DNA of 64,000 nt, taken from assembly GCA_000146465.1 (NCBI GenBank), contig CP001945.1, one strand, 5' to 3'. The translations under genes were made by a program, and so were the position numbers. Positions 6,255 to 43,562 of this stretch are shown piece after piece (position 1 is the first letter of the stretch; every line of letters starts with the position of its first letter). A model generated the notes under the pieces. The model ran no database searches, was not told the DNA's origin, and worked only from the letters and a program-made list of their open reading frames with translations.

Positions 6255-7223
6255 ATGCTTCTACTTCTTACAATTGTTGGAATAGTGGTCTGCAGGGAAA
6301 ATGCAGTGATTCTGATTCTCTGTAGGAACAGCGACAAGAATGGCATAACAGAAACGATAAAGAATTTCGAAGAGGTGTTCAATAGAAACTTCGGATATCC
6401 TTATGTATTTCTGAACGATGAGGAGTTTACCGAGGACTTCAAGAAAGCTATAAAGGATGTTACATCTAATAGTGTTGAGTTTGGAAGACTCGAGCCCGAG
6501 GAGTGGGAGATTCCAAAGTGGATAGATATGGAGAAGGCAAAGGAGGAAATGAAGAAAATGGAAGACAGGAAAATCATCTATGGAGGGTCTCTATCATACA
6601 GGAAGATGTGCAGGTTCTTTTCTGGATTCTTCTACAGGAACAAGCTTGTCCAGAAGTATGACTATTATTGGAGGATAGAGCCAGATGTAAAGTTCCTGTG
6701 CCAGATAGAGTATGATCCGTTCACATATCTTCGGGAGAACAACAAACAGTATGGGTTTGTGATATCCTTGGTTGAGTTTATGGAGACGATTCCCAGTCTG
6801 TTTGGAGAGGTGATAAAGTTTGCAACACATAACCTGAACTTGATCAAAAAGGCCAATGGAAATAGATTCATACTAAACAAGGACGGGTCATACAACGGAT
6901 GTCATTTTTGGTCCAACTTTGAAATAGCAAACTTTGGATTCTTTAGAAATGAAACATACCAGAAGTACTTTGATTGGTTAGACAAGGCTGGGGGGTTTTT
7001 CTACGAAAGATGGGGTGATGCGCCTGTGCACAGTATTGCAGCATCTCTCTTCCTGGATAAGGATCAGATCCACTTCTTCAGCGACATTGGGTATGAGCAT
7101 CCTCCATTCCAGCATTGTCCAAGAGAGGCGTCCATGAGATCGAAATGCAAGTGCAGTATTTCGAACTCGTTAGACTTTTCTCCAAATTCGTGTCTGGGCT
7201 TGTACATAAAGTCTCTTTTGTGA
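6255..7223 (+). CDS. Glycolipid/glycoprotein alpha-1,2-mannosyltransferase, KRE2/MNT1 (GT15) family, type II membrane protein
   Basis: N-terminal signal-anchor [15 protein letters not shown]15 motifs are conserved throughout, including [21 protein letters not shown] and [12 protein letters not shown]. Confidence 0.85.
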
Positions 7224-36043: not shown

Positions 36044-39000
36044 CTAGACTTTATTATTAAAGAAGTCTACATTGTATATAAGATCGAAAGAGTTTGTCCC
36101 GCATTTCACGGGATTTCCCACAGTTATGGAGGCAGAGGGATTAGACAATTGATCTTCAAGGTGGAATGCTGCAGCTGTTTTGAAGTTGGAGTAGCAGCTT
36201 TCGAAACTCATTTTCTGGATAAGAGAGTCGCCAATTCCAAGTCCATGCCTACTGAAGGGAGAGTAGTCGCCTTTTCTTGTCATATAGTCAGCTACAAGAA
36301 GAAGATGCCGAGCATCAATTGAAATTCCATAGACATCGAAAACCTTCACTACTTCGTTGATTATAGCATGTCTTGCAGCCTCAATCCCAAGCGTTAGATA
36401 CACATTGTATATATCATTAGACTCGGAATTGTAGATATCTAAGAGATCTAGTAGATCCTCATAGACACCGGGAGCCACCTCTATCCTTCCTGTCAAAGAG
36501 GAGATGGAAGGGCTTTCTACAAAGAGAGTATTTCCGGAGATCGAGGCCTTTTTTATGCCTTTGGTTTCTCTCACCACAACTGTAGGAAGGATAGATTCGA
36601 TTATTGAGGATATCACTTCGTTAAATCCAGAAGGATACAGCATCTCAAATGAAAGTATGTTTTTTGACTTCCTTGTAAAGTTTATGAGATTCTCCTCTTC
36701 AGTACTGCTTGAGTTATCGGTATGGTCAATTTCGTCAATAGTCTCGGGATGAGTAGTATCATCACTGTCCTTTTCAGTGTTTTCATTCTCGCTGGTATCT
36801 ACACATATATAGTCACTCTTTGAATTACTTTCCTCATCACTGTCACTCTCATCCTCTTCCTCGTTTTCTTTGTTTTCATCTAGTTCCTTTGAACTATCTT
36901 TATTTCCCTCTTCCATTCCTAACTTATATTTTACTTTAGATAGCATTTTCAGTTTACTTCCAAGTATCTTCAGGAACTTTCGGTCCAAAGCCTCGCTTGC
37001 AAGGTCCACAAAGTTGTCCAGGTCAAACACCATTCTAATTTTCTTCTGAAAGACCCCGTCAATCATCACAATTTCCTCAGAGACCCTAAATTTCCTGACA
37101 CAATCTTTCAGTGTTATCTTCTTTAAGCATGTACCAATATCAAAATTCAACTTTTTCCTGATAGGAATAGTAACCAAAGGCGTCTTTATGGACTTGGATG
37201 CTACCAATAGAATTTCTCTGAGCCTAGGAACTCCAAGAGTCACGTTCTTTTCTCCTACACCAGCTAGATGAAAGGTGTTGAGAGTCATCTGAGTGGAGGG
37301 TTCTCCTATCGACTGTGCAGCTATAATCCCGACAGATTCTCCTGGGTCGGCTAGAGAGCATACATACCTACTTTCCAGAAATCTCTTAAGCTCTTCGTCA
37401 AAAAACTCTATCTCTTTTTTGAACCGAGGAGACAAGAAATCTTCGTATCTGTTGCTAAGCTTGAAGGAAGACAAAGATAGCTCCTTAAAGAGAAAGGCAT
37501 TTCTTCGGAAAAACTCAGGATCGTCCAAATAGCTTGACTTCGTGCAGTCAAGGCCGTCCTCGCCATAAACAAACTGAACTATCTTTTTCCCAATCCGTGC
37601 CGATCTGTCATACTCAACCTTTATCCCCTCCATGTGCTTAACTAGGCATCTTTGTAGATATCCGGAATTGGCAGTTTTGATTGCAGTATCAATAAGCCCT
37701 TCTCTCCCTGCCATGCAATGGAAAAAATATTGTGATGGATTGATACCATCCAAAAAGCCTTGATATATGTACCCTCCAGAGGATGGATCAGGATCCAGCG
37801 GCTTGAAGCAAGGCAATGTCTTTCCACTAGCCATCACCGGGACTCTCCGTCCCTCCAGCTCTTGCTGTCCTAGAGCACCTGAAATCTGGCTCAGATTAAC
37901 AATCGAACCCTTGGATCCTATCGAAACAATCAATTCCATACCGTTGTCCGGAAAACCTTTCTTCAATCCTGAAGGAACGGATGCATTAACTATCTCTGAG
38001 GTTATCTTGTTCATTTCTCTTCTCATTATAGAGTCCAAGTAAGCTTTTTTGTCGTCGCATAAGTAAAAGTCTGGATTCGCTTCCATGTACTCCTTCTGAA
38101 GCTCCCTTACCTTCTTGTCTTTGGTTTCCATCACTTTTTTTCTTTTCGCATTCGCATCATTGCTAAGAATAAGATCATCTGCTCCTATTGTAAACCCATA
38201 CATTTGAAGATATTTGTTGCAAACTCTTCCTATATATGTTAGTAGGTCATTCGAGGCTGCAAACCCCCTAATCTCTCCGCAGGCATGGGCTAAGGACTTG
38301 AAAGTTGGCCCTATTGAGTTCTTGTCCAAAATCCCTGTAATTATATTCCCTTCACTAATTCTTAGAACGCTTTCTTCCGAATGCTCCCTCCATGCGTCTT
38401 TTGGAACCTTGGTTTCAATTTCAATATTTAAACCCAGCCCGAGGTTCTTTATTATTGCTGAGAGCACTTGCTTTCCAGAATAGAGTCTTACAGGCTTGAG
38501 AATACAGGGCTTATCTATGGTAATTCGTCTTCCATCCAATCCAGAATTCACTAGAGTAAAGTAATCTTCTTCGGAAAAGAACGAGTTTTTCATCGTCAAG
38601 ATTGCTGCAGCAACAATGTGATCTTGGGTAAGGCCTCTTATTGGTTTCCCGTCGGTGGGGACTAGATAGTTGAAGTCATTCATGACAATATGTCTAGCCT
38701 CGGCCTCAGCAACATAACTTTGTGGAAAATGAATGTTCATCTCATCTCCATCAAAGTCTGCGTTGTAAGATTTACAGTTGGCATAATGCATTCTTAATGT
38801 CCTTTCTCCTTTCAGCACCTTGCACTTATGAGCCATAATGCTTGGTCTATGTAAAGTCGGCTGTCTGTTCACAAGTACCACATCTCCATCCACCAAATGT
38901 CTCCAAACAACCTTCTTTCCATCCAGGAGCTGGTTTGCCAAGGCAAATCTCTTTTCGTCAGGCATGTGGCTTAAACTAAGCATTACATCTCCATCCTGTA

Positions 39001-40225
39001 GGTATAAACTTCCCGGATAGGTAGATCCATTCACAATAGCCTTTTTCAATTTGCTTACATTGAAGCTAGTTACTCTCTCTGGAAATGTCAGAACTTCCGC
39101 AAACACAAAAGGAACTCCTATCTCCCGTGTCTCTAGATTAGGGTCTGGGGATATGACAGTCCTCGCCGCGAAGTTAACTCTCTTTCCCATTATGTTTTTG
39201 CGGAACAGCCCTTCCTTCTTTTCAAGAATCTGCTTGTGTCCCGGTGGCGTTATCAAACCGATATTCCGTTTCCTTAGGTTTGAATTATCAAACGACGAAA
39301 GAACAGCACCTTGCAGCTCTGGCCAGTATGAAAGGTCTTTTTTCACCAATTCATTGATGGTGAGAATGTCGTTAAAGGAAAAAGTCTGAGGATTCGGGGC
39401 CTTCTTCTCATTTAAAAAAGACACCGGACGGAATCTATTGGGTGTGACAGGTATACTTGTCAAAAAGAACATATTCGGGTCTTTTGTAGAGAAGATGGAG
39501 CCAATCAAGTCGGCTTCATTGGAAAACAAATCTTCCACAAGCTCTCTAATAAAATCCGGGAAAAGCAGCTCCGAATCCTTTTCATTCTCACTATTTTCAT
39601 CATCCCTTTGGAGGGACTTTAATATCTTTATGTTTGTTCCTTTATAGATCTTTGGATTGGCATGTCCACATCTCACACATTTCTTTTTTGAATTTATACT
39701 AGAAAAGAAGTGGCGCACCATCTCCTGGTACTTATCTGTTGGAGGCCCAGGTCTGTTTTTCCTTGAGGATTCCACTCTCTTACTAACAACACTGTACAGC
39801 TCCTCTTCCTCCGAAGTAGCATACAGCTCATCCAAGCCGTCTATTTCTTCTCCATTTCTAAGAAGAGAGAACTTACAGAACATAATAAGCCGATCATAAT
39901 TTGTTATTCTAAAGTGCCTGCACTGGAAGCAACAACACCTAACTAATGAGAGCAGCGAGTCGAAGAATATCGGATTGAAAACAGGCTTAAATAGCTTTAT
40001 GCGTCCAAAATGTCCTGGGCAGTTTAGAAGCGACAAATTGCAGGTTTTACAGTTGGACGAGAAGTCTAATGGCCCCATTCTCAAGTCGTACAGGCCTCCA
40101 CGCACAGGATGCCCGAACTTGTCGAAAGTAGATGGCTCCGTAACATCCATGCAACTAGCCTGTTCTATTTCCTTTTCAGAGTATACTCCAAACGATATCT
40201 TCTTTGGATGAAATTTCATAACCAT
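36044..40225 (-). CDS. RPA190: DNA-directed RNA polymerase I largest subunit (A190/RPA1)
   Basis: Catalytic YNADFDGDEMNIHFPQSYVAEAEA ('HFPQ' is Pol I-specific, versus VPQ in Pol II/III). GLTQDHIVAAAILTMKNSFFSEEDY is Pol I-like. There is no CTD heptad, and an acidic expander-like insertion is present. The ORF-track N-terminal 50 aa (MGGIRTTQ…) are a read-through of the antisense tRNA-Met, so the start is set at MVMKFHPKK (40225). Confidence 0.85.
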   Translation of the reverse strand: MVMKFHPKKISFGVYSEKEIEQASCMDVTEPSTFDKFGHPVRGGLYDLRMGPLDFSSNCKTCNLSLLNCPGHFGRIKLFKPVFNPIFFDSLLSLVRCCCFQCRHFRITNYDRLIMFCKFSLLRNGEEIDGLDELYATSEEEELYSVVSKRVESSRKNRPGPPTDKYQEMVRHFFSSINSKKKCVRCGHANPKIYKGTNIKILKSLQRDDENSENEKDSELLFPDFIRELVEDLFSNEADLIGSIFSTKDPNMFFLTSIPVTPNRFRPVSFLNEKKAPNPQTFSFNDILTINELVKKDLSYWPELQGAVLSSFDNSNLRKRNIGLITPPGHKQILEKKEGLFRKNIMGKRVNFAARTVISPDPNLETREIGVPFVFAEVLTFPERVTSFNVSKLKKAIVNGSTYPGSLYLQDGDVMLSLSHMPDEKRFALANQLLDGKKVVWRHLVDGDVVLVNRQPTLHRPSIMAHKCKVLKGERTLRMHYANCKSYNADFDGDEMNIHFPQSYVAEAEARHIVMNDFNYLVPTDGKPIRGLTQDHIVAAAILTMKNSFFSEEDYFTLVNSGLDGRRITIDKPCILKPVRLYSGKQVLSAIIKNLGLGLNIEIETKVPKDAWREHSEESVLRISEGNIITGILDKNSIGPTFKSLAHACGEIRGFAASNDLLTYIGRVCNKYLQMYGFTIGADDLILSNDANAKRKKVMETKDKKVRELQKEYMEANPDFYLCDDKKAYLDSIMRREMNKITSEIVNASVPSGLKKGFPDNGMELIVSIGSKGSIVNLSQISGALGQQELEGRRVPVMASGKTLPCFKPLDPDPSSGGYIYQGFLDGINPSQYFFHCMAGREGLIDTAIKTANSGYLQRCLVKHMEGIKVEYDRSARIGKKIVQFVYGEDGLDCTKSSYLDDPEFFRRNAFLFKELSLSSFKLSNRYEDFLSPRFKKEIEFFDEELKRFLESRYVCSLADPGESVGIIAAQSIGEPSTQMTLNTFHLAGVGEKNVTLGVPRLREILLVASKSIKTPLVTIPIRKKLNFDIGTCLKKITLKDCVRKFRVSEEIVMIDGVFQKKIRMVFDLDNFVDLASEALDRKFLKILGSKLKMLSKVKYKLGMEEGNKDSSKELDENKENEEEDESDSDEESNSKSDYICVDTSENENTEKDSDDTTHPETIDEIDHTDNSSSTEEENLINFTRKSKNILSFEMLYPSGFNEVISSIIESILPTVVVRETKGIKKASISGNTLFVESPSISSLTGRIEVAPGVYEDLLDLLDIYNSESNDIYNVYLTLGIEAARHAIINEVVKVFDVYGISIDARHLLLVADYMTRKGDYSPFSRHGLGIGDSLIQKMSFESCYSNFKTAAAFHLEDQLSNPSASITVGNPVKCGTNSFDLIYNVDFFNNKV

Positions 40226-40307
40226 TTTGAAGAAGGGTCGTTTTGAGAATGAAATTGAAAATGCAGATAATCCTAGGGAGATGCCGATCTTGATAGGCCA
40301 TCTTAAA

Positions 40308-40380
40308 GCATGGTGGCGCAATGGAAGCGCGCTGGGCTCATAACCCAGAGGTTGTGTGGTTCGAATCCCACCCATGCTAG
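40308..40380 (+). tRNA. tRNA-Met (anticodon CAT), initiator-like
   Basis: AGCATGG acceptor 5' arm pairs perfectly with CCATGCT plus discriminator A (A1:U72). D arm GCGC/GCGC. Anticodon stem CTGGG/CCCAG with loop CTCATAA. T-loop GGTTCGAATCC. Overall close to eukaryotic tRNAi-Met, but the T-stem pairs imperfectly by hand folding. Confidence 0.7.
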
Positions 40381-40449
40381 TTTCTTTTCAACCCCTACCC
40401 ATTAGAGTTCCCCATCTTAAATAGAACTTGACTTTATTATAAAATCGAA

Positions 40450-42252
40450 TCAAACATAGACTGTTGTGACAAACTGCTCCTCAGACTCTTTGCACACCTT
40501 TCTTTTCTTCCCTTCCACCCCCTTTCTGCAGTTTGGCTTCTTCTTATATGAGTAAACTGTATTATATACAGTCTTATGGCCTCCCTTGTTTTTTGTTTCT
40601 CTCTCCACAGTCTTTACTACTGTTTTTGTCACCGTCTTCACCAAGTCACTTGCCATTTCTAAGTGAGAGCTTTGCTTGGGAGTTTTTGTGCATTTTGTTT
40701 CTTCCAAATCCTCAATTAACACCTTTCTAACTAATGGAAGGAGCTCTGCTATTATGTCTTGCCTACCTGTGTTCATAAACCCTTGAGTATCCGATAATGA
40801 AGCAGCCACAGAGGAAAAGACCTCTTTCTTTTCCGAAGTCTCAGGAACACTGACGGTGAGACACTTTTCCGTACATATTAGAGAAATCGAGGCTGGCAAA
40901 GAGATACTGGCAGAAACCCCTTCTCCCTTTTGGGATCCAGGATTTTGGCTTGGGTCACTTCTAGAAGCTGTCTGTGTTGTAACTTCCTCTGTCTTTGTAA
41001 CCGTAAGGACGGAAACAGTTGGTTTAGTTATTGTTCTATATACCACACTAGGAAATTCAGAAGTACTTGGATCACTACTAGAGGAATCTATTGTTTTCGT
41101 ACTCTTCTGAGTCTCTTCATTCCTTTTCGATGTCTCACCAGAAATAATTGGAGCTCTCATGGATATACTTTCCTCCGGCACCTTCGGAATTTCCTGGCCA
41201 TGCGGAGCCTTTGTAGATATGATTGTGGAATACTGCGTCTGTACAACTGTCTCTGTCTTAACGCTACTCTCTGTCTTGGTTGAGGTTGAAATCTCCTTGA
41301 CAGTTGTTAGCTTGTAATTGATAATGGGAACTTCACTCTTGACTGTTGTTGTCACTTCTCTGTACAACGTAATGGGTTTTTCGACACTGACAGTCTTATA
41401 AAACACTCGGGTGACTGTCACAACAGTGGGCTCGCCCTTTTCCTTTTCATCATCTTCAAAACCTTTTTCTGCTTCGGAGACTTCATCTATTTTGTCATCG
41501 TCCAGTGAAGAGTCCTTGAGCTTGGAGCGCTTTACTGAAGAAGAAATAAGGGTAGAGCCCTCCCCTTCCTTTACAGGAGTCTTACGGATATTGTCGTCGT
41601 ATTTTCTTTGCTTCTCAGGTCTCTCAGAGCGTGTCAATTGAGAAACCTTTTCTGAAATCACTGGAATCTCCACCGTCTTGAAAATAGTTTTCGTATCCTC
41701 TTTTTTAGTTTCACAGGTTTTACCATCCTCGGTCACGTGGGTATCTTTCTTCTGCTCGTCCCTTGAGATTGTTGCCGGGTGCTCTGAGACCGTCTCCGTC
41801 TTTGTTTCAATTACTGTGATGCTTTTATAAGATACTAATGGTACCTCTTCGGTTTTGGTTGCCGGTGCAGAATTACTCTTATTTGTATCTTTGTGATGGA
41901 TCACATGAATGAAGGGAATCGGAGGTTCGGAATTCCTTCTATATGAATCCATTGGGCCGTTAGAAGGTCCTTCTCTCATCCATTCAAGCTCTTTGCACTC
42001 GTCTCTACAATCTTCCTTCCTACAGTTCATGCATTTATTCACATCTTTGTAGACAACAGCCATGCACCTTCCTTTGTTACAACTTGAATCGCGCACTATT
42101 GGCAAATTAAAGCTCTGAAGATATTCATCGTATTCCCGTTTGGGAAGATACACGGAGTTCAAGCAGTCGTTCAAACTTATTCCATATCTCTGGCATCTAC
42201 TCGTTAGCTCGTCCTGGATGGCATAGCATCCCATAATCATCAGAATTATCAT
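40450..42252 (-). CDS. Secreted cysteine-rich, Thr/Ser/Val/Lys/Glu-rich repetitive (mucin-like) protein; candidate spore-wall / polar-tube-type protein
   Basis: Hydrophobic signal-peptide-like N-terminus MIILMIMGCYAIQD. Eight Cys in residues 20-90. About 430 aa of low complexity (TVVTVTRV, KTVTKTVVKTVERETK). A basic C-terminal patch KKKPNCRKGVEGKKRKVCK. Confidence 0.5.
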   Translation of the reverse strand: MIILMIMGCYAIQDELTSRCQRYGISLNDCLNSVYLPKREYDEYLQSFNLPIVRDSSCNKGRCMAVVYKDVNKCMNCRKEDCRDECKELEWMREGPSNGPMDSYRRNSEPPIPFIHVIHHKDTNKSNSAPATKTEEVPLVSYKSITVIETKTETVSEHPATISRDEQKKDTHVTEDGKTCETKKEDTKTIFKTVEIPVISEKVSQLTRSERPEKQRKYDDNIRKTPVKEGEGSTLISSSVKRSKLKDSSLDDDKIDEVSEAEKGFEDDEKEKGEPTVVTVTRVFYKTVSVEKPITLYREVTTTVKSEVPIINYKLTTVKEISTSTKTESSVKTETVVQTQYSTIISTKAPHGQEIPKVPEESISMRAPIISGETSKRNEETQKSTKTIDSSSSDPSTSEFPSVVYRTITKPTVSVLTVTKTEEVTTQTASRSDPSQNPGSQKGEGVSASISLPASISLICTEKCLTVSVPETSEKKEVFSSVAASLSDTQGFMNTGRQDIIAELLPLVRKVLIEDLEETKCTKTPKQSSHLEMASDLVKTVTKTVVKTVERETKNKGGHKTVYNTVYSYKKKPNCRKGVEGKKRKVCKESEEQFVTTVYV

Positions 42253-42363: not shown

Positions 42364-42435
42364 GGCTCGGTGGTCTAAGGGTATGATCTCCGCTTTGGGT
42401 GCGGAGGGCTCCAGGTTCAAATCCTGGCCGAGCCC
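42364..42435 (+). tRNA. tRNA-Pro (anticodon TGG)
   Basis: GGCTCGGTGGTCTAAGGGTATGATCTCCGCTTTGGGTGCGGAGGGCTCCAGGTTCAAATCCTGGCCGAGCCC. A canonical 72-nt cloverleaf, near-identical in architecture to eukaryotic tRNA-Pro. Anticodon loop TTTGGGT. Confidence 0.85.
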
Positions 42436-42524: not shown

Positions 42525-43562
42525 ATGGAAGAATACACACTCTGCTCCTCAAGTACCGAGCAAGGCGAAATACCAGTCATTCACATCAAAAGATTCAAGG
42601 AGGCCCCTCCATTGTTTCCAAGAAACAAGTCTCAGCTGCAGTATATGTATCTCCCAAACAAGTCCCTATTTATCGGGCCAAACACCATTCCAAGGTCTAG
42701 TGATTATCAAGTAAATGTCCTTACAACCAAGCTTAAAAAGAGACTCAAGCATGATCTTTCTCATCCGTTTCTGTGTCTTTCGATGAATTCCGATAGATCA
42801 TTCTTTGAAGGGAGGTTTACCTTTGTCTCCACGGTCCAAATCCCAGAAAGTGTTGAAGAGATGTGTTTTGTCAAAGGTAAGGAGAGGATAGTTCATGTCA
42901 AAGAAAAAACAGATGTAAATACAGACGTGAGAAAAGAAATAAAATTCGACCACATAAAGGACAAACAGAACGATTCATACAAAGATGTCTGCCAGGACTT
43001 TTTGCTTGGAAAGTTACTTGAAGGCATTGGGGACAAAAAGATAAATATCATCATTAGAGACTCCACCATCAATAATATTCTGTCAAAAGAAGCATATATA
43101 CACTTTTATGTAAAGAAGAAGGATGAAAAACTGTACATTGTTTTTGACGAAGTTTACACTAGAGAAGTCAAGTATTACGACTATCTCTCGAAGTATGGGG
43201 AGGAGGTTGTTCGATCTCTGAAATCTTCGGAAACCCGTATGTATTCCAGTTCGGAAGCAGTGGTTGTTGTGTATTCATCAACTCTCTTCTACGATTCCTC
43301 TGGGCTTCATAGACTGTTTAGTGGAATTGACGTCGAAAAGTCCATCGACATGGTGGTAAATATTGAAGATGTAAGAGCTGTAAAAAGCTCAGGATCCTTA
43401 GGAGACGAGCTGAAGGTGCTTTTTGGAATTAAGTTTGAGGAGGGAGAATATGTCCTTAATGATAAGAAGATATATGTGTTGGAGCCAAGCGGGGAAAAGT
43501 TTAAATTCAATGGAGTTGTGTTTACTGATTTTATGGACTCCCAGGAGCCTATAAGCGATTAA
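42525..43562 (+). CDS. Hypothetical protein (346 aa from Met 42525)
   Basis: The long ORF 42399..43562 begins inside tRNA-Pro. The first plausible start is MEEYTLCS at 42525. No diagnostic motif. Confidence 0.4.
   Translation: MEEYTLCSSSTEQGEIPVIHIKRFKEAPPLFPRNKSQLQYMYLPNKSLFIGPNTIPRSSDYQVNVLTTKLKKRLKHDLSHPFLCLSMNSDRSFFEGRFTFVSTVQIPESVEEMCFVKGKERIVHVKEKTDVNTDVRKEIKFDHIKDKQNDSYKDVCQDFLLGKLLEGIGDKKINIIIRDSTINNILSKEAYIHFYVKKKDEKLYIVFDEVYTREVKYYDYLSKYGEEVVRSLKSSETRMYSSSEAVVVVYSSTLFYDSSGLHRLFSGIDVEKSIDMVVNIEDVRAVKSSGSLGDELKVLFGIKFEEGEYVLNDKKIYVLEPSGEKFKFNGVVFTDFMDSQEPISD

What the first reader, a model, noticed from the sequence alone, without database searches (positions are those of the whole stretch)
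40450..42252. Secreted Cys-rich plus mucin-like Thr/Val/Lys-repeat protein, flanked by two tRNA genes: candidate new invasion-apparatus or spore-wall component
The 600-aa minus-strand ORF has a signal-peptide-like N-terminus (MIILMIMGCYAIQD). It carries an 8-Cys module (SRCQRYG…NDCLNS…SSCNKGRCM…NKCMNCRKEDCRDEC). About 430 aa follow that are dominated by T/S/V/K/E with degenerate repeats (TVVTVTRV, KTVTKTVVKTVERETK). The C-terminus has a basic patch (KKKPNCRKGVEGKKRKVCK) resembling heparin-binding motifs. In microsporidia this architecture is the hallmark of polar-tube and spore-wall proteins, which are heavily O-mannosylated. A Kre2/Mnt1 alpha-1,2-mannosyltransferase is encoded in this window at 6255..7223. 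The gene has no recognisable housekeeping homologue. It sits in an unusual island bracketed by tRNA-Met (40308..40380) and tRNA-Pro (42364..42435)
Basis: partly seen in the sequence, partly recalled or inferred. Interest (0 to 1): 0.7.

Follow-up and report, generated by a model that had tools for sequence, protein, structure and literature searches.

The report
Conserved secreted Thr-rich microsporidian protein
The ORF is a real, already annotated but unstudied gene (Eint_041410 of Encephalitozoon intestinalis) from a protein family found only in microsporidia; the family looks secreted and disulfide-bonded, which makes it a reasonable but unproven candidate for a spore or invasion-apparatus component.

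Summary
The region 40450..42252(-) is a 600-aa ORF with a hydrophobic N-terminus, an 8-Cys N-terminal module, a Thr/Ser/Val/Lys/Glu-rich body and a basic C-terminus, and it lies between tRNA-Met and tRNA-Pro. It is Eint_041410 of Encephalitozoon intestinalis, annotated "uncharacterized"; the E. cuniculi orthologue is ECU04_1410. A profile search found 67 representatives, and every named one is microsporidian and "hypothetical". Neither Pfam nor PDB matches, and I found no paper naming any member. Across the family, 44 of 48 members have a signal-peptide-like N-terminus directly before an almost invariant C-x9-C-x27-C-x4-C domain. The Thr/Val-rich part is not mucin-like. It holds conserved short beta-strand motifs (ExPxxxY[K/R]xxTT, four copies) separated by variable linkers, and there is no DNA tandem repeat. 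The C-terminal basic patch is a loop between two conserved Cys. The "tRNA island" is ordinary conserved synteny. The protein is not PTP1-5, not A. algerae PTP7 and not AlocSWP2, and its orthologues are missing from two spore or polar-tube proteome lists. Best reading: a secretory-pathway, probably O-mannosylated, structural or adhesive protein. Its location in the spore wall or polar tube is unproven.

The parts
40450..42252 (-). Complete CDS of Eint_041410 (600 aa plus stop codon), a single-copy member of a Microsporidia-restricted family of uncharacterised proteins
   Evidence: ORF listing. It is 100% identical to ADM11429.1, Eint_041410. Orthologues are ECU04_1410, EHEL_041370, EROM_041430 and Ordospora M896_041890.
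42220..42252 (-). Residues 1-11 (MIILMIMGCYA): a short signal-peptide-like hydrophobic leader. The putative cleavage site after A11 has Cys at -3 and Ala at -1.
   Evidence: Highest hydropathy in the protein. A hydrophobic leader precedes the first conserved Cys in 44 of 48 family representatives. This is a heuristic; SignalP was not run.
41983..42207 (-). Residues 16-90: the N-terminal Cys-rich head. It has four family-invariant Cys (C20, C30, C58, C63; C-x9-C-x27-C-x4-C) and a second cluster CxxCx4Cx3C (C74, C77, C82, C86) that is kept in many clades and replaced in others.
   Evidence: In the 43-sequence alignment A3 the only invariant columns are these 4 Cys. The spacing is nearly constant. 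AF2 gives pLDDT 63.7, mostly helical. There is no PDB sequence or fold match.
41773..41847 (-). Residues 136-160: the first conserved Thr/Val beta-motif island (EVPLVSYKSITVIETKTETVSE), copy 1 of the ExPxxxY[KR]xxT motif
   Evidence: Conservation profile and motif search.
41218..41442 (-). Residues 271-345: the family core, VVTVTRVFYKTVSVEKPITLYREVTTTVKSEVPIINYKLTTV..., holding two adjacent copies of the motif. It is the best conserved part of the protein.
   Evidence: About 0.9 identity over residues 286-315 among 10 orthologues. The motifs PITLYRE and PIINYK each occur in 33 of 45 diverse members. T279 and T317 are invariant in A4. AF2 predicts long beta hairpins here, but at low confidence.
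40993..41061 (-). Residues 398-420: the fourth motif copy (EFPSVVYRTITKPTVSVLTVTK)
40714..40767 (-). Residues 496-513: a conserved amphipathic helix (RQDIIAELLPLVRKVLIE)
   Evidence: 0.83 identity. AF2 predicts a helix at 501-513. Related segments occur in distant members.
40453..40644 (-). Residues 537-600: the conserved C-terminal module, KTVTKTVVKTV...KTVYNTVYSYKKKP-C575-RKGVEGKKRKV-C587-...TTVYV
   Evidence: Invariant or near-invariant columns in A1 and A2. A C-terminal Cys-Cys loop occurs in 40 of 45 members.
40492..40530 (-). Residues 575-587: a basic loop between two conserved Cys, with 6 K/R among its 11 loop residues.
   Evidence: C575 is invariant in A1 and A2, and C587 is invariant in A1. 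The loop is often, but not always, basic across the family. It fits a bipartite-NLS regex but not XBBXBX or XBBBXXBX.
40433..40438 (-). AATAAA polyadenylation-type hexamer 11 nt downstream of the stop codon
   Evidence: Read directly from the sequence. Its role as a poly(A) signal is inferred from what is generally known of Encephalitozoon genes.
40307..40379 (+). tRNA-Met (CAT), on the opposite strand, 70 nt downstream of the CDS. It is a syntenic neighbour and not part of the gene.
   Evidence: ARAGORN. It holds the same position in E. romaleae and Ordospora.
42364..42435 (+). tRNA-Pro (TGG), on the opposite strand, 111 nt upstream of the ATG. It is a syntenic neighbour.
   Evidence: ARAGORN. 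It holds the same position in E. romaleae and Ordospora.

Best explanation
Eint_041410 is the E. intestinalis member of a single-copy protein family restricted to Microsporidia.

Shown:
- a conserved hydrophobic leader;
- a roughly 75-aa N-terminal head with four invariant Cys;
- four conserved Thr/Val-rich beta-strand motifs (ExPxxxY[K/R]xxTT) separated by variable charged linkers;
- a conserved amphipathic helix;
- a C-terminal module with a basic loop between two conserved Cys;
- no TM segment, no hydrophobic GPI-type tail and no KDEL/HDEL.

Inferred:
- the leader is a cleaved signal peptide that takes the protein into the ER;
- the Cys form disulfides that stabilise the head and the C-terminal loop;
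- the Ser/Thr-rich linkers are O-mannosylated by the Pmt / Ktr-Mnt1 pathway that microsporidia retain;
- the protein is exported as an elongated structural or adhesive glycoprotein;
- its conserved beta motifs and terminal Cys modules mediate self-association or binding to other extracellular matrix proteins of the spore (spore wall, anchoring-disc/polar-tube complex);
- the basic loop contacts an anionic partner, either acidic wall/tube proteins or host glycosaminoglycans.

I put entry into the secretory pathway at about 0.75. I put a structural role in the spore wall or invasion apparatus at about 0.35-0.45.
For: Identity and family. There are 67 representatives with E<1e-3, and every named one is microsporidian.

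Leader: 44 of 48 representatives have a hydrophobic stretch directly before Cys1. The median position of Cys1 is about residue 21, and several members have canonical n-h-c leaders.

Cys pattern: the four Cys are the only invariant columns among 43 N-domains, and their spacing is fixed. A C-terminal Cys pair occurs in 40 of 45 members.

Sorting signals: no TM segment and no ER-retention or GPI-like C-terminus.

Composition: Thr is 9-21% across the family, and this protein is the top Thr and TSVKE outlier in the window.

Block-wise conservation, with T/V motifs conserved and linkers variable, argues for specific structural contacts.

O-mannosylation machinery exists in the genome (PF01793).

Signal peptides, conserved Cys, glycosylation and adhesion motifs are the features listed for known microsporidian spore-wall proteins in PMC5697631. 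PTP1, PTP2 and PTP7 need DTT for extraction (PMC10229552).

The T. hominis locus containing the orthologue is well transcribed, with values of about 330-1370 in the paper's per-sample expression table.
Against: There is no localisation or proteomic evidence for any family member. EHEL_041370 is not among the 22 signal-peptide hypotheticals in the E. hellem cross-linked DTT polar-tube extract. SLOPH_1706 is not in the Spraguea spore/germination proteome table. Family motifs were not found in the A. algerae polar-tube list, although the sequences there are truncated.

The Encephalitozoon leader is very short (h-region about 6-11 aa, no basic n-region, and E. cuniculi has a Glu inside it), so SignalP may reject it. 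Only a heuristic was applied here.

AF2 gives no confident fold (pLDDT 34 for the full length, 64 for the head).

The negative MS evidence is softened by one fact: only 4 of the 37 tryptic peptides of 7-30 aa lack Ser/Thr. Heavy O-mannosylation would therefore hide the protein from standard searches.
Confidence: 0.45

Rival explanations
1. The protein is secreted or lumenal but is not a spore structural component. It could act in the ER/Golgi-like vesicles or the polaroplast during sporogony, for example as an assembly or scaffold factor. Alternatively it could coat the plasma membrane of meronts and sporonts, or the lumen of the parasitophorous vacuole.
For: It shares the secretory features of the best explanation. 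It also explains why orthologues are missing from the spore and polar-tube proteome lists. The T. hominis orthologue locus is transcribed in infected cell cultures.
Against: There is no ER-retention motif and no membrane anchor. The negative proteomics is weak, because glycosylation would mask most peptides and the E. hellem list was filtered on a predicted signal peptide. Strict conservation across all sampled microsporidian lineages fits a core spore or invasion structure at least as well.
Confidence: 0.3
2. The protein is specifically a new polar-tube protein (PTP-like), cross-linked into the tube by disulfides in the way PTP1 and PTP2 are.
For: It has a signal peptide, terminal Cys clusters and many potential O-glycosylation sites. 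A. algerae PTP7 is likewise Thr-rich (11%), bears Cys, is extractable only with DTT and migrates above its predicted size.
Against: It is not homologous to AaPTP7 (hhalign probability 0.1). It is not PTP1-5, which are Eint_060150, 060140, 111330, 071050 and 071040. It is not in a ptp gene cluster. It is absent from the E. hellem polar-tube list and was not recognised in the A. algerae polar-tube list.
Confidence: 0.15
3. The protein is not secreted. It is a nuclear, nucleolar or cytosolic Lys/Thr-rich low-complexity protein whose C-terminal KK-x10-KKRK acts as a bipartite NLS, and the hydrophobic N-terminus is incidental.
For: KKKPNCRKGVEGKKRKVCK fits a bipartite-NLS regex. The protein is mostly predicted to be disordered or of low confidence. 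The Encephalitozoon leader is atypically short.
Against: The hydrophobic leader is conserved in position but not in sequence in 44 of 48 homologues, and is canonical in many. The invariant Cys spacings are not CxxC zinc-knuckle-like. The 'NLS' sits inside a Cys-Cys loop whose basic character is not conserved across the family.
Confidence: 0.08

Closest known systems
Microsporidian polar tube proteins PTP1/PTP2 (E. intestinalis Eint_060150/Eint_060140)
   Same: They are microsporidia-specific, carry signal peptides, have conserved Cys thought to form disulfides, and have many potential O-mannosylation sites (PTP1). The comparison is by feature, from PMC10229552 and PMC7040029.
   Different: This is a different gene on a different chromosome. 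It is not Pro-rich (Pro 5%) as PTP1 is, and it is not a ~30-kDa basic Lys-rich protein as PTP2 is (66 kDa, pI 7.8). It is not in a ptp1-ptp2 cluster. It is far better conserved across Microsporidia than PTP1 is reported to be. I had no PTP1 or PTP2 sequences to align.
Anncaliia algerae PTP7 (WAQ68440)
   Same: It has a signal peptide, Thr as its most abundant residue (11%), a few Cys, and T-rich beta-like stretches such as TIYETKTQFVTSTITETK.
   Different: There is no detectable homology (hhalign probability 0.1). The PTP7 N-terminus is unrelated to the 4-Cys head; to my eye it resembles a ricin-B-like domain, which I did not test. PTP7 is reported only in Anncaliia and Tubulinosema, whereas this family spans the phylum.
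Microsporidian spore-wall/endospore proteins (EnP1, SWP1/2, AlocSWP2)
   Same: They share a signal peptide, conserved Cys, glycosylation potential and basic adhesion motifs. This is the feature list given in PMC5697631.
   Different: AlocSWP2 is 222 aa, has Cys at 23/117/146/173 and a GPI site, so it is a different protein. This protein has no GPI-type tail. Its only canonical XBBXBX motif lies in a non-conserved linker. Homology to EnP1 and SWP1/2 could not be tested directly. No ECU04 gene appears in the 2020 review text, which tabulates the PTPs.
Fungal cell-wall adhesins of the Als/Flo type (analogy only)
   Same: The layout is similar: signal peptide, a disulfide-bonded N-terminal head, a Thr/Val/Ile-rich beta-prone region and Ser/Thr-rich segments that could be O-mannosylated. 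This comparison rests on my own knowledge.
   Different: There is no sequence or Pfam relationship. There is no GPI signal and no tandem DNA repeats. A conserved C-terminal Cys-loop module stands where an anchor would be.

Membership tests
The Eint_041410 / ECU04_1410 family (unnamed, Microsporidia-restricted) | N-terminal C-x9-C-x27-C-x4-C domain directly after a hydrophobic leader | tested here: met
   C20, C30, C58 and C63 have spacing 9/27/4. The four Cys are invariant in 43 sequences.
The Eint_041410 / ECU04_1410 family (unnamed, Microsporidia-restricted) | Core double motif ...PITLYRE...PIINYK.TTV and the C-terminal KTVYNTVY...C-loop-C...TVYV module | tested here: met
   Both are present at residues 293-318 and 559-600. 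They are found in 33 of 45 and 40 of 45 members.
Classical secretory protein | Cleavable N-terminal signal peptide | tested here: inconclusive
   Only a hydropathy and -3/-1 heuristic was applied. The Encephalitozoon leader is short. The family-wide pattern is strongly signal-peptide-like (44 of 48). SignalP and DeepTMHMM are not available here.
Classical secretory protein | No further TM segment, no KDEL/HDEL, no GPI-type hydrophobic C-terminus | tested here: met
   The best 19-residue hydropathy window is 1.17. The C-terminus is ...EEQFVTTVYV.
PTP1 | Pro-rich acidic protein encoded next to ptp2 | tested here: not met
   Pro is 5% and the pI is 7.8. The neighbours are the RNA polymerase large subunit, two tRNAs and a 345-aa hypothetical. 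PTP1 of E. intestinalis is Eint_060150.
PTP2 | A basic, Lys-rich protein of about 275 aa with 8 conserved Cys | tested here: not met
   This protein is 600 aa with pI 7.8. PTP2 is Eint_060140. Pfam gave no hit at all.
A. algerae PTP7 | Sequence homology to WAQ68440 | tested here: not met
   hhalign of A2 against AaPTP7 gave probability 0.1.
AlocSWP2-type spore wall proteins | A protein of about 220 aa with four conserved Cys (23/117/146/173) and a GPI site | tested here: not met
   Size, Cys spacing and C-terminus all differ. The comparison was made by features, without aligning the sequences.
EnP1-type heparin-binding adhesins | Canonical heparin-binding motifs (XBBXBX / XBBBXXBX) that are conserved, plus GAG binding | tested here: inconclusive
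   There is one XBBXBX (VKRSKL, residue 240) in a weakly conserved linker. The conserved C-terminal basic loop fits neither pattern. Binding cannot be tested here, and no EnP1 sequence was available for alignment.
Mucin-like / PTS-repeat glycoprotein | Tandem Pro/Thr/Ser repeats that are poorly conserved in sequence | tested here: not met
   TRF found no arrays at score 30 or above. The T/V blocks are the best conserved parts of the protein.
O-mannosylated protein | Mannose on Ser/Thr | not testable with these tools
   The only indications are 22.5% Ser+Thr and a Kre2/Mnt1 gene in the genome.

The most novel reading that the evidence does not exclude
This family is a previously unrecognised core structural component of the microsporidian spore envelope or invasion apparatus, for example of the anchoring disc/polar tube or the endospore. 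It would have been missed by proteomics because O-mannosylation and disulfide cross-linking hide its peptides. Unlike PTP1/2 or the SWPs, it can be aligned across the whole phylum, so it would serve as a universal marker or target.
Probability: 0.3. Interest if true: 0.65.

Novelty: new member of a known kind. Interest (0 to 1): 0.42.

Why it matters
Only a few polar-tube and spore-wall proteins are known. Most diverge so fast that they cannot be traced across the phylum. This family is signal-peptide-bearing, has invariant Cys, is single-copy, and is recognisable from Encephalitozoon to Antonospora, Pancytospora and the Pleistophora-like lineages. It has no Pfam model and no publication that I could find. 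If it proves to be a spore or invasion-apparatus component, it would give a phylum-wide handle for antibodies, diagnostics and evolutionary analysis of the invasion machinery. If it proves to be an intracellular-stage or lumenal factor, it is still one of the few conserved microsporidia-specific secretory proteins. At present it is a well-defined candidate whose role remains to be shown.

Tried and rejected
1. Pfam on the protein and on 45 diverse family members gave no family. The lone HNH_3 hit (E=0.057) is noise.
2. A PDB sequence-profile search with the N-domain found nothing.
3. AF2 on the full length gave pLDDT 34, which is unusable. AF2 on the N-domain with 43 sequences gave pLDDT 63.7. 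Foldseek against PDB gave no match better than E=3. The afdb50 library was unavailable.
4. Homology to A. algerae PTP7 was rejected.
5. Identity with AlocSWP2, suggested by its 'four conserved cysteines', was rejected on size and Cys positions.
6. I searched the literature for ECU04_1410, Eint_041410, EHEL_041370, EROM_041430, SLOPH_1706, M896_041890, THOM_0435, NGRA_0712, NCER_101721, AAJ76_3700010706 and other tags, and found no paper.
7. Supplement searches were as follows:
   - Spraguea: the tag appears only in the OrthoMCL table and not in the proteome table.
   - T. hominis genome paper: nothing.
   - V. necatrix annotation paper: nothing.
   - E. hellem polar-tube list: absent.
   - A. 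algerae polar-tube list: motifs not found, but the sequences there are truncated and split by spaces.
8. The word-indexed profile search and the search with the N. granulosis member added nothing. No N. bombycis orthologue was retrieved.
9. The idea of a mobile or unusual 'tRNA island' was rejected by synteny.
10. TRF found no DNA-level tandem repeats.
Full report
**What is there.** The window is Encephalitozoon intestinalis chromosome IV. The 600-aa minus-strand ORF at 40450..42252 is identical to Eint_041410 (ADM11429.1, "uncharacterized protein"). It has full-length orthologues in E. cuniculi (ECU04_1410, Q8SVR3), E. hellem (EHEL_041370), E. romaleae (EROM_041430) and Ordospora colligata (M896_041890), at 41-63% identity.

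- MIILMIMGC is the most hydrophobic 9-mer, and no other TM-like segment exists.
- Eight Cys lie between residues 20 and 86.
- Thr, Ser, Lys, Glu and Val together make up 53% of the protein. This is the highest value among the 34 ORFs of at least 250 aa in the window, which range from 30 to 44%.
- The basic C-terminal patch is present.
- The two tRNAs flank the gene.
- The ORF at 6255..7223 is a Kre2/Mnt1-type mannosyltransferase (PF01793, E=3e-115).
- An AATAAA hexamer lies 11 nt after the stop codon.

**The family.** A profile of 11 homologues was searched without a word index against 1.84 billion representative proteins. It returned 67 proteins at E<1e-3, of which 19 were below 1e-30. Every named hit is microsporidian and "hypothetical":
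- Spraguea lophii SLOPH_1706
- Pseudoloma neurophilia
- Trachipleistophora hominis THOM_0435
- Nosema granulosis
- Vairimorpha ceranae and V. bombi
- Antonospora locustae Q6E6G3
- Astathelohania contejeani
- Pancytospora philotis
- Conglomerata obtusa

These names come, with taxonomy checked. Encephalitozoon and Ordospora species each returned a single hit; copy number was not checked in the other species. None of 45 diverse members matches any Pfam model. The N-domain profile finds nothing in the PDB. No paper in the searchable library mentions any of about 18 locus tags and accessions.

**Anatomy.** There are five elements.
1. Leader. In 44 of 48 representatives a hydrophobic stretch directly precedes the first conserved Cys. 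Its sequence is not conserved but its position is, with Cys1 at about residue 21 (median). Several members have textbook n-h-c leaders ending AQA, GQA or AGA. The four exceptions start only 11-13 residues before Cys1 and look like truncated gene models. The Encephalitozoon leader itself is short and lacks a basic n-region. The signal peptide is therefore much better supported by the family than by this sequence alone.
2. Head. Across 43 N-domains the only invariant columns are four Cys, with spacing C-x9-C-x27-C-x4-C. A second cluster, CxxCx4Cx3C (C74-C86), is kept in many lineages and replaced by other Cys arrangements elsewhere. AF2 gives a small, mostly helical domain at pLDDT 63.7, with no Foldseek match in the PDB.
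3. Body. The conservation profile alternates. Conserved islands lie at 106-120, 136-160, 181-195, 271-345, 402-420 and 496-512, and the linkers between them are poorly conserved and charged. The islands carry a recurring motif, P-[ILVS]-[ILVT]-x-Y-[KR]-x-[ILVT]-T, at residues 138, 293, 309 and 401. The expected count is 0.0008 per shuffle, though the pattern was defined post hoc. T[VI]x[TKRE][TVI] pentamers occur 8 times against 1 expected. The adjacent pair PITLYRE...PIINYKxTTV is the family signature, with each half present in 33 of 45 members. TRF finds no DNA tandem repeat. The region is therefore not mucin-like. It is a set of conserved, beta-prone short motifs. AF2 draws them as long hairpins, but at pLDDT of about 30, so this is only a hint.
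4. Helix. A conserved amphipathic helix lies at 496-513.
5. C-terminal module. KTVYNTVYSYKKKP-C575-RKGVEGKKRKV-C587...TTVYV is conserved. A Cys-Cys loop near the C-terminus occurs in 40 of 45 members and is often, but not always, basic.

There is no GPI-type tail and no KDEL/HDEL. The predicted mature protein is 66 kDa with pI 7.8.

**Context.** The order tRNA-Pro / gene / tRNA-Met / RNA polymerase large subunit is identical in E. romaleae and Ordospora. In a homologue only 27% identical (P0053, from an unidentified microsporidian SRA assembly), the gene again sits directly upstream of the Rpb1-like gene. It is also head-to-head with a homologue of the window's 345-aa hypothetical (29% identity, E=5e-35), although there are no tRNAs there. 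The "island" is thus ancestral synteny in a compact genome. It is not a mobile or special locus. The mannosyltransferase gene is 33 kb away and has no positional link.

**Comparison with known proteins.**
- PTP1-5 of E. intestinalis are Eint_060150, 060140, 111330, 071050 and 071040 (PMC7040029). This gene is none of them, and its composition and size fit neither PTP1 nor PTP2.
- A. algerae PTP7 is Thr-rich, bears Cys, is extractable only with DTT and locates to the tube tip (PMC10229552). It looked like a lead. Its sequence, recovered from that paper's Table S3, shows no relationship (hhalign probability 0.1).
- AlocSWP2, described as having "four conserved cysteines", is a 222-aa GPI-type protein with different Cys positions.
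- The general feature list for microsporidian wall proteins in that paper (signal peptide, conserved Cys, glycosylation, adhesion motifs) is partly met. There is no GPI site. The only canonical XBBXBX motif lies in a non-conserved linker. The conserved basic loop fits no Cardin-Weintraub pattern and formally fits a bipartite-NLS regex.

**Evidence on localisation.** There is no positive evidence.
- EHEL_041370 is not among the 22 signal-peptide-positive hypotheticals from the E. hellem cross-linked DTT polar-tube extract (PMC6703431, Table S1).
- SLOPH_1706 appears only in the OrthoMCL table of the Spraguea paper and not in its spore/germination proteome table.
- Family motifs were not found in the A. 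algerae polar-tube protein list. This test is weak, because those sequences are truncated.

These negatives are softened by two facts. The E. hellem list was filtered on a predicted signal peptide, which the short Encephalitozoon leader may fail. Only 4 of the 37 tryptic peptides of 7-30 aa lack Ser/Thr, so O-mannosylation would hide most of the protein. As for transcription, the T. hominis locus containing THOM_0435 gives values of about 330-1370 in the paper's per-sample expression table (PMC4654818 supplement).

**Interpretation.** I consider it likely (about 0.75) that the protein enters the secretory pathway and that its invariant Cys form disulfides. The most plausible role is an exported, elongated, probably O-mannosylated structural or adhesive protein of the spore envelope or invasion apparatus. 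In this reading the conserved beta motifs and the terminal Cys modules mediate assembly. This localisation is an inference from architecture and phylum-wide conservation, and I put it at about 0.35-0.45. The rivals are:
- a secretory-pathway or intracellular-stage surface factor that is not part of the spore (0.3);
- specifically a polar-tube protein (0.15, a subset of the main reading);
- a non-secreted nuclear low-complexity protein (0.08).

**Verdict.** The gene is already annotated, but the family is uncharacterised and has no Pfam model. It is a solid experimental candidate of moderate interest.

Noticed in passing
window 36044..40375 (-): This is the RNA polymerase largest-subunit homologue (Rpb1 domains 1-5, no CTD). 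The mechanical ORF runs 5' across tRNA-Met (40307..40379). The real start is probably the internal MVMKFHP... Met near 40225, which gives about 1390-1400 aa, in line with the E. romaleae and Ordospora orthologues (1396 and 1411 aa).
   Followed up: partly
window 42525..43562 (+): A 345-aa hypothetical protein is transcribed divergently from the target. The listed GTG-start ORF from 42399 overlaps tRNA-Pro, so the likely start is MEEYTLC at 42525. It has no Pfam hit and no hydrophobic leader. It is conserved in the same head-to-head position in a very distant microsporidian locus (L003: 29% identity, E=5e-35). It is another conserved microsporidian gene of unknown function.
   Followed up: partly
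window 6255..7223 (+): A Kre2/Mnt1-type alpha-1,2-mannosyltransferase (PF01793, E=3e-115). This confirms that the genome has machinery to extend O-mannose chains. It is not linked by position to the target gene.
   Followed up: yes
P0065, P0069, P0072, P0075, P0078, P0082-P0084; L004 5001..6578: A divergent subgroup of the family keeps the leader and the 4-Cys head but replaces the CxxCx4Cx3C cluster with HPPGDCxCLGxxxCGC. It lacks the PITLYRE/PIINYK core motifs and sits in a different gene neighbourhood, next to an HTH_micro protein (NCBI assembly GCA_024244045.1; the tool did not give the organism).
   Followed up: partly
PMC10229552 Table S3 (A. algerae PTP7, WAQ68440): To my eye the N-terminal ~130 aa of AaPTP7 look like a ricin-B-lectin-type repeat (WIIAR..., VKWEV..., QRFMI). 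This would link PTP7 to the RBL/PTP6-like proteins that co-purify with PTP3 in V. necatrix. I did not test it.
   Followed up: no
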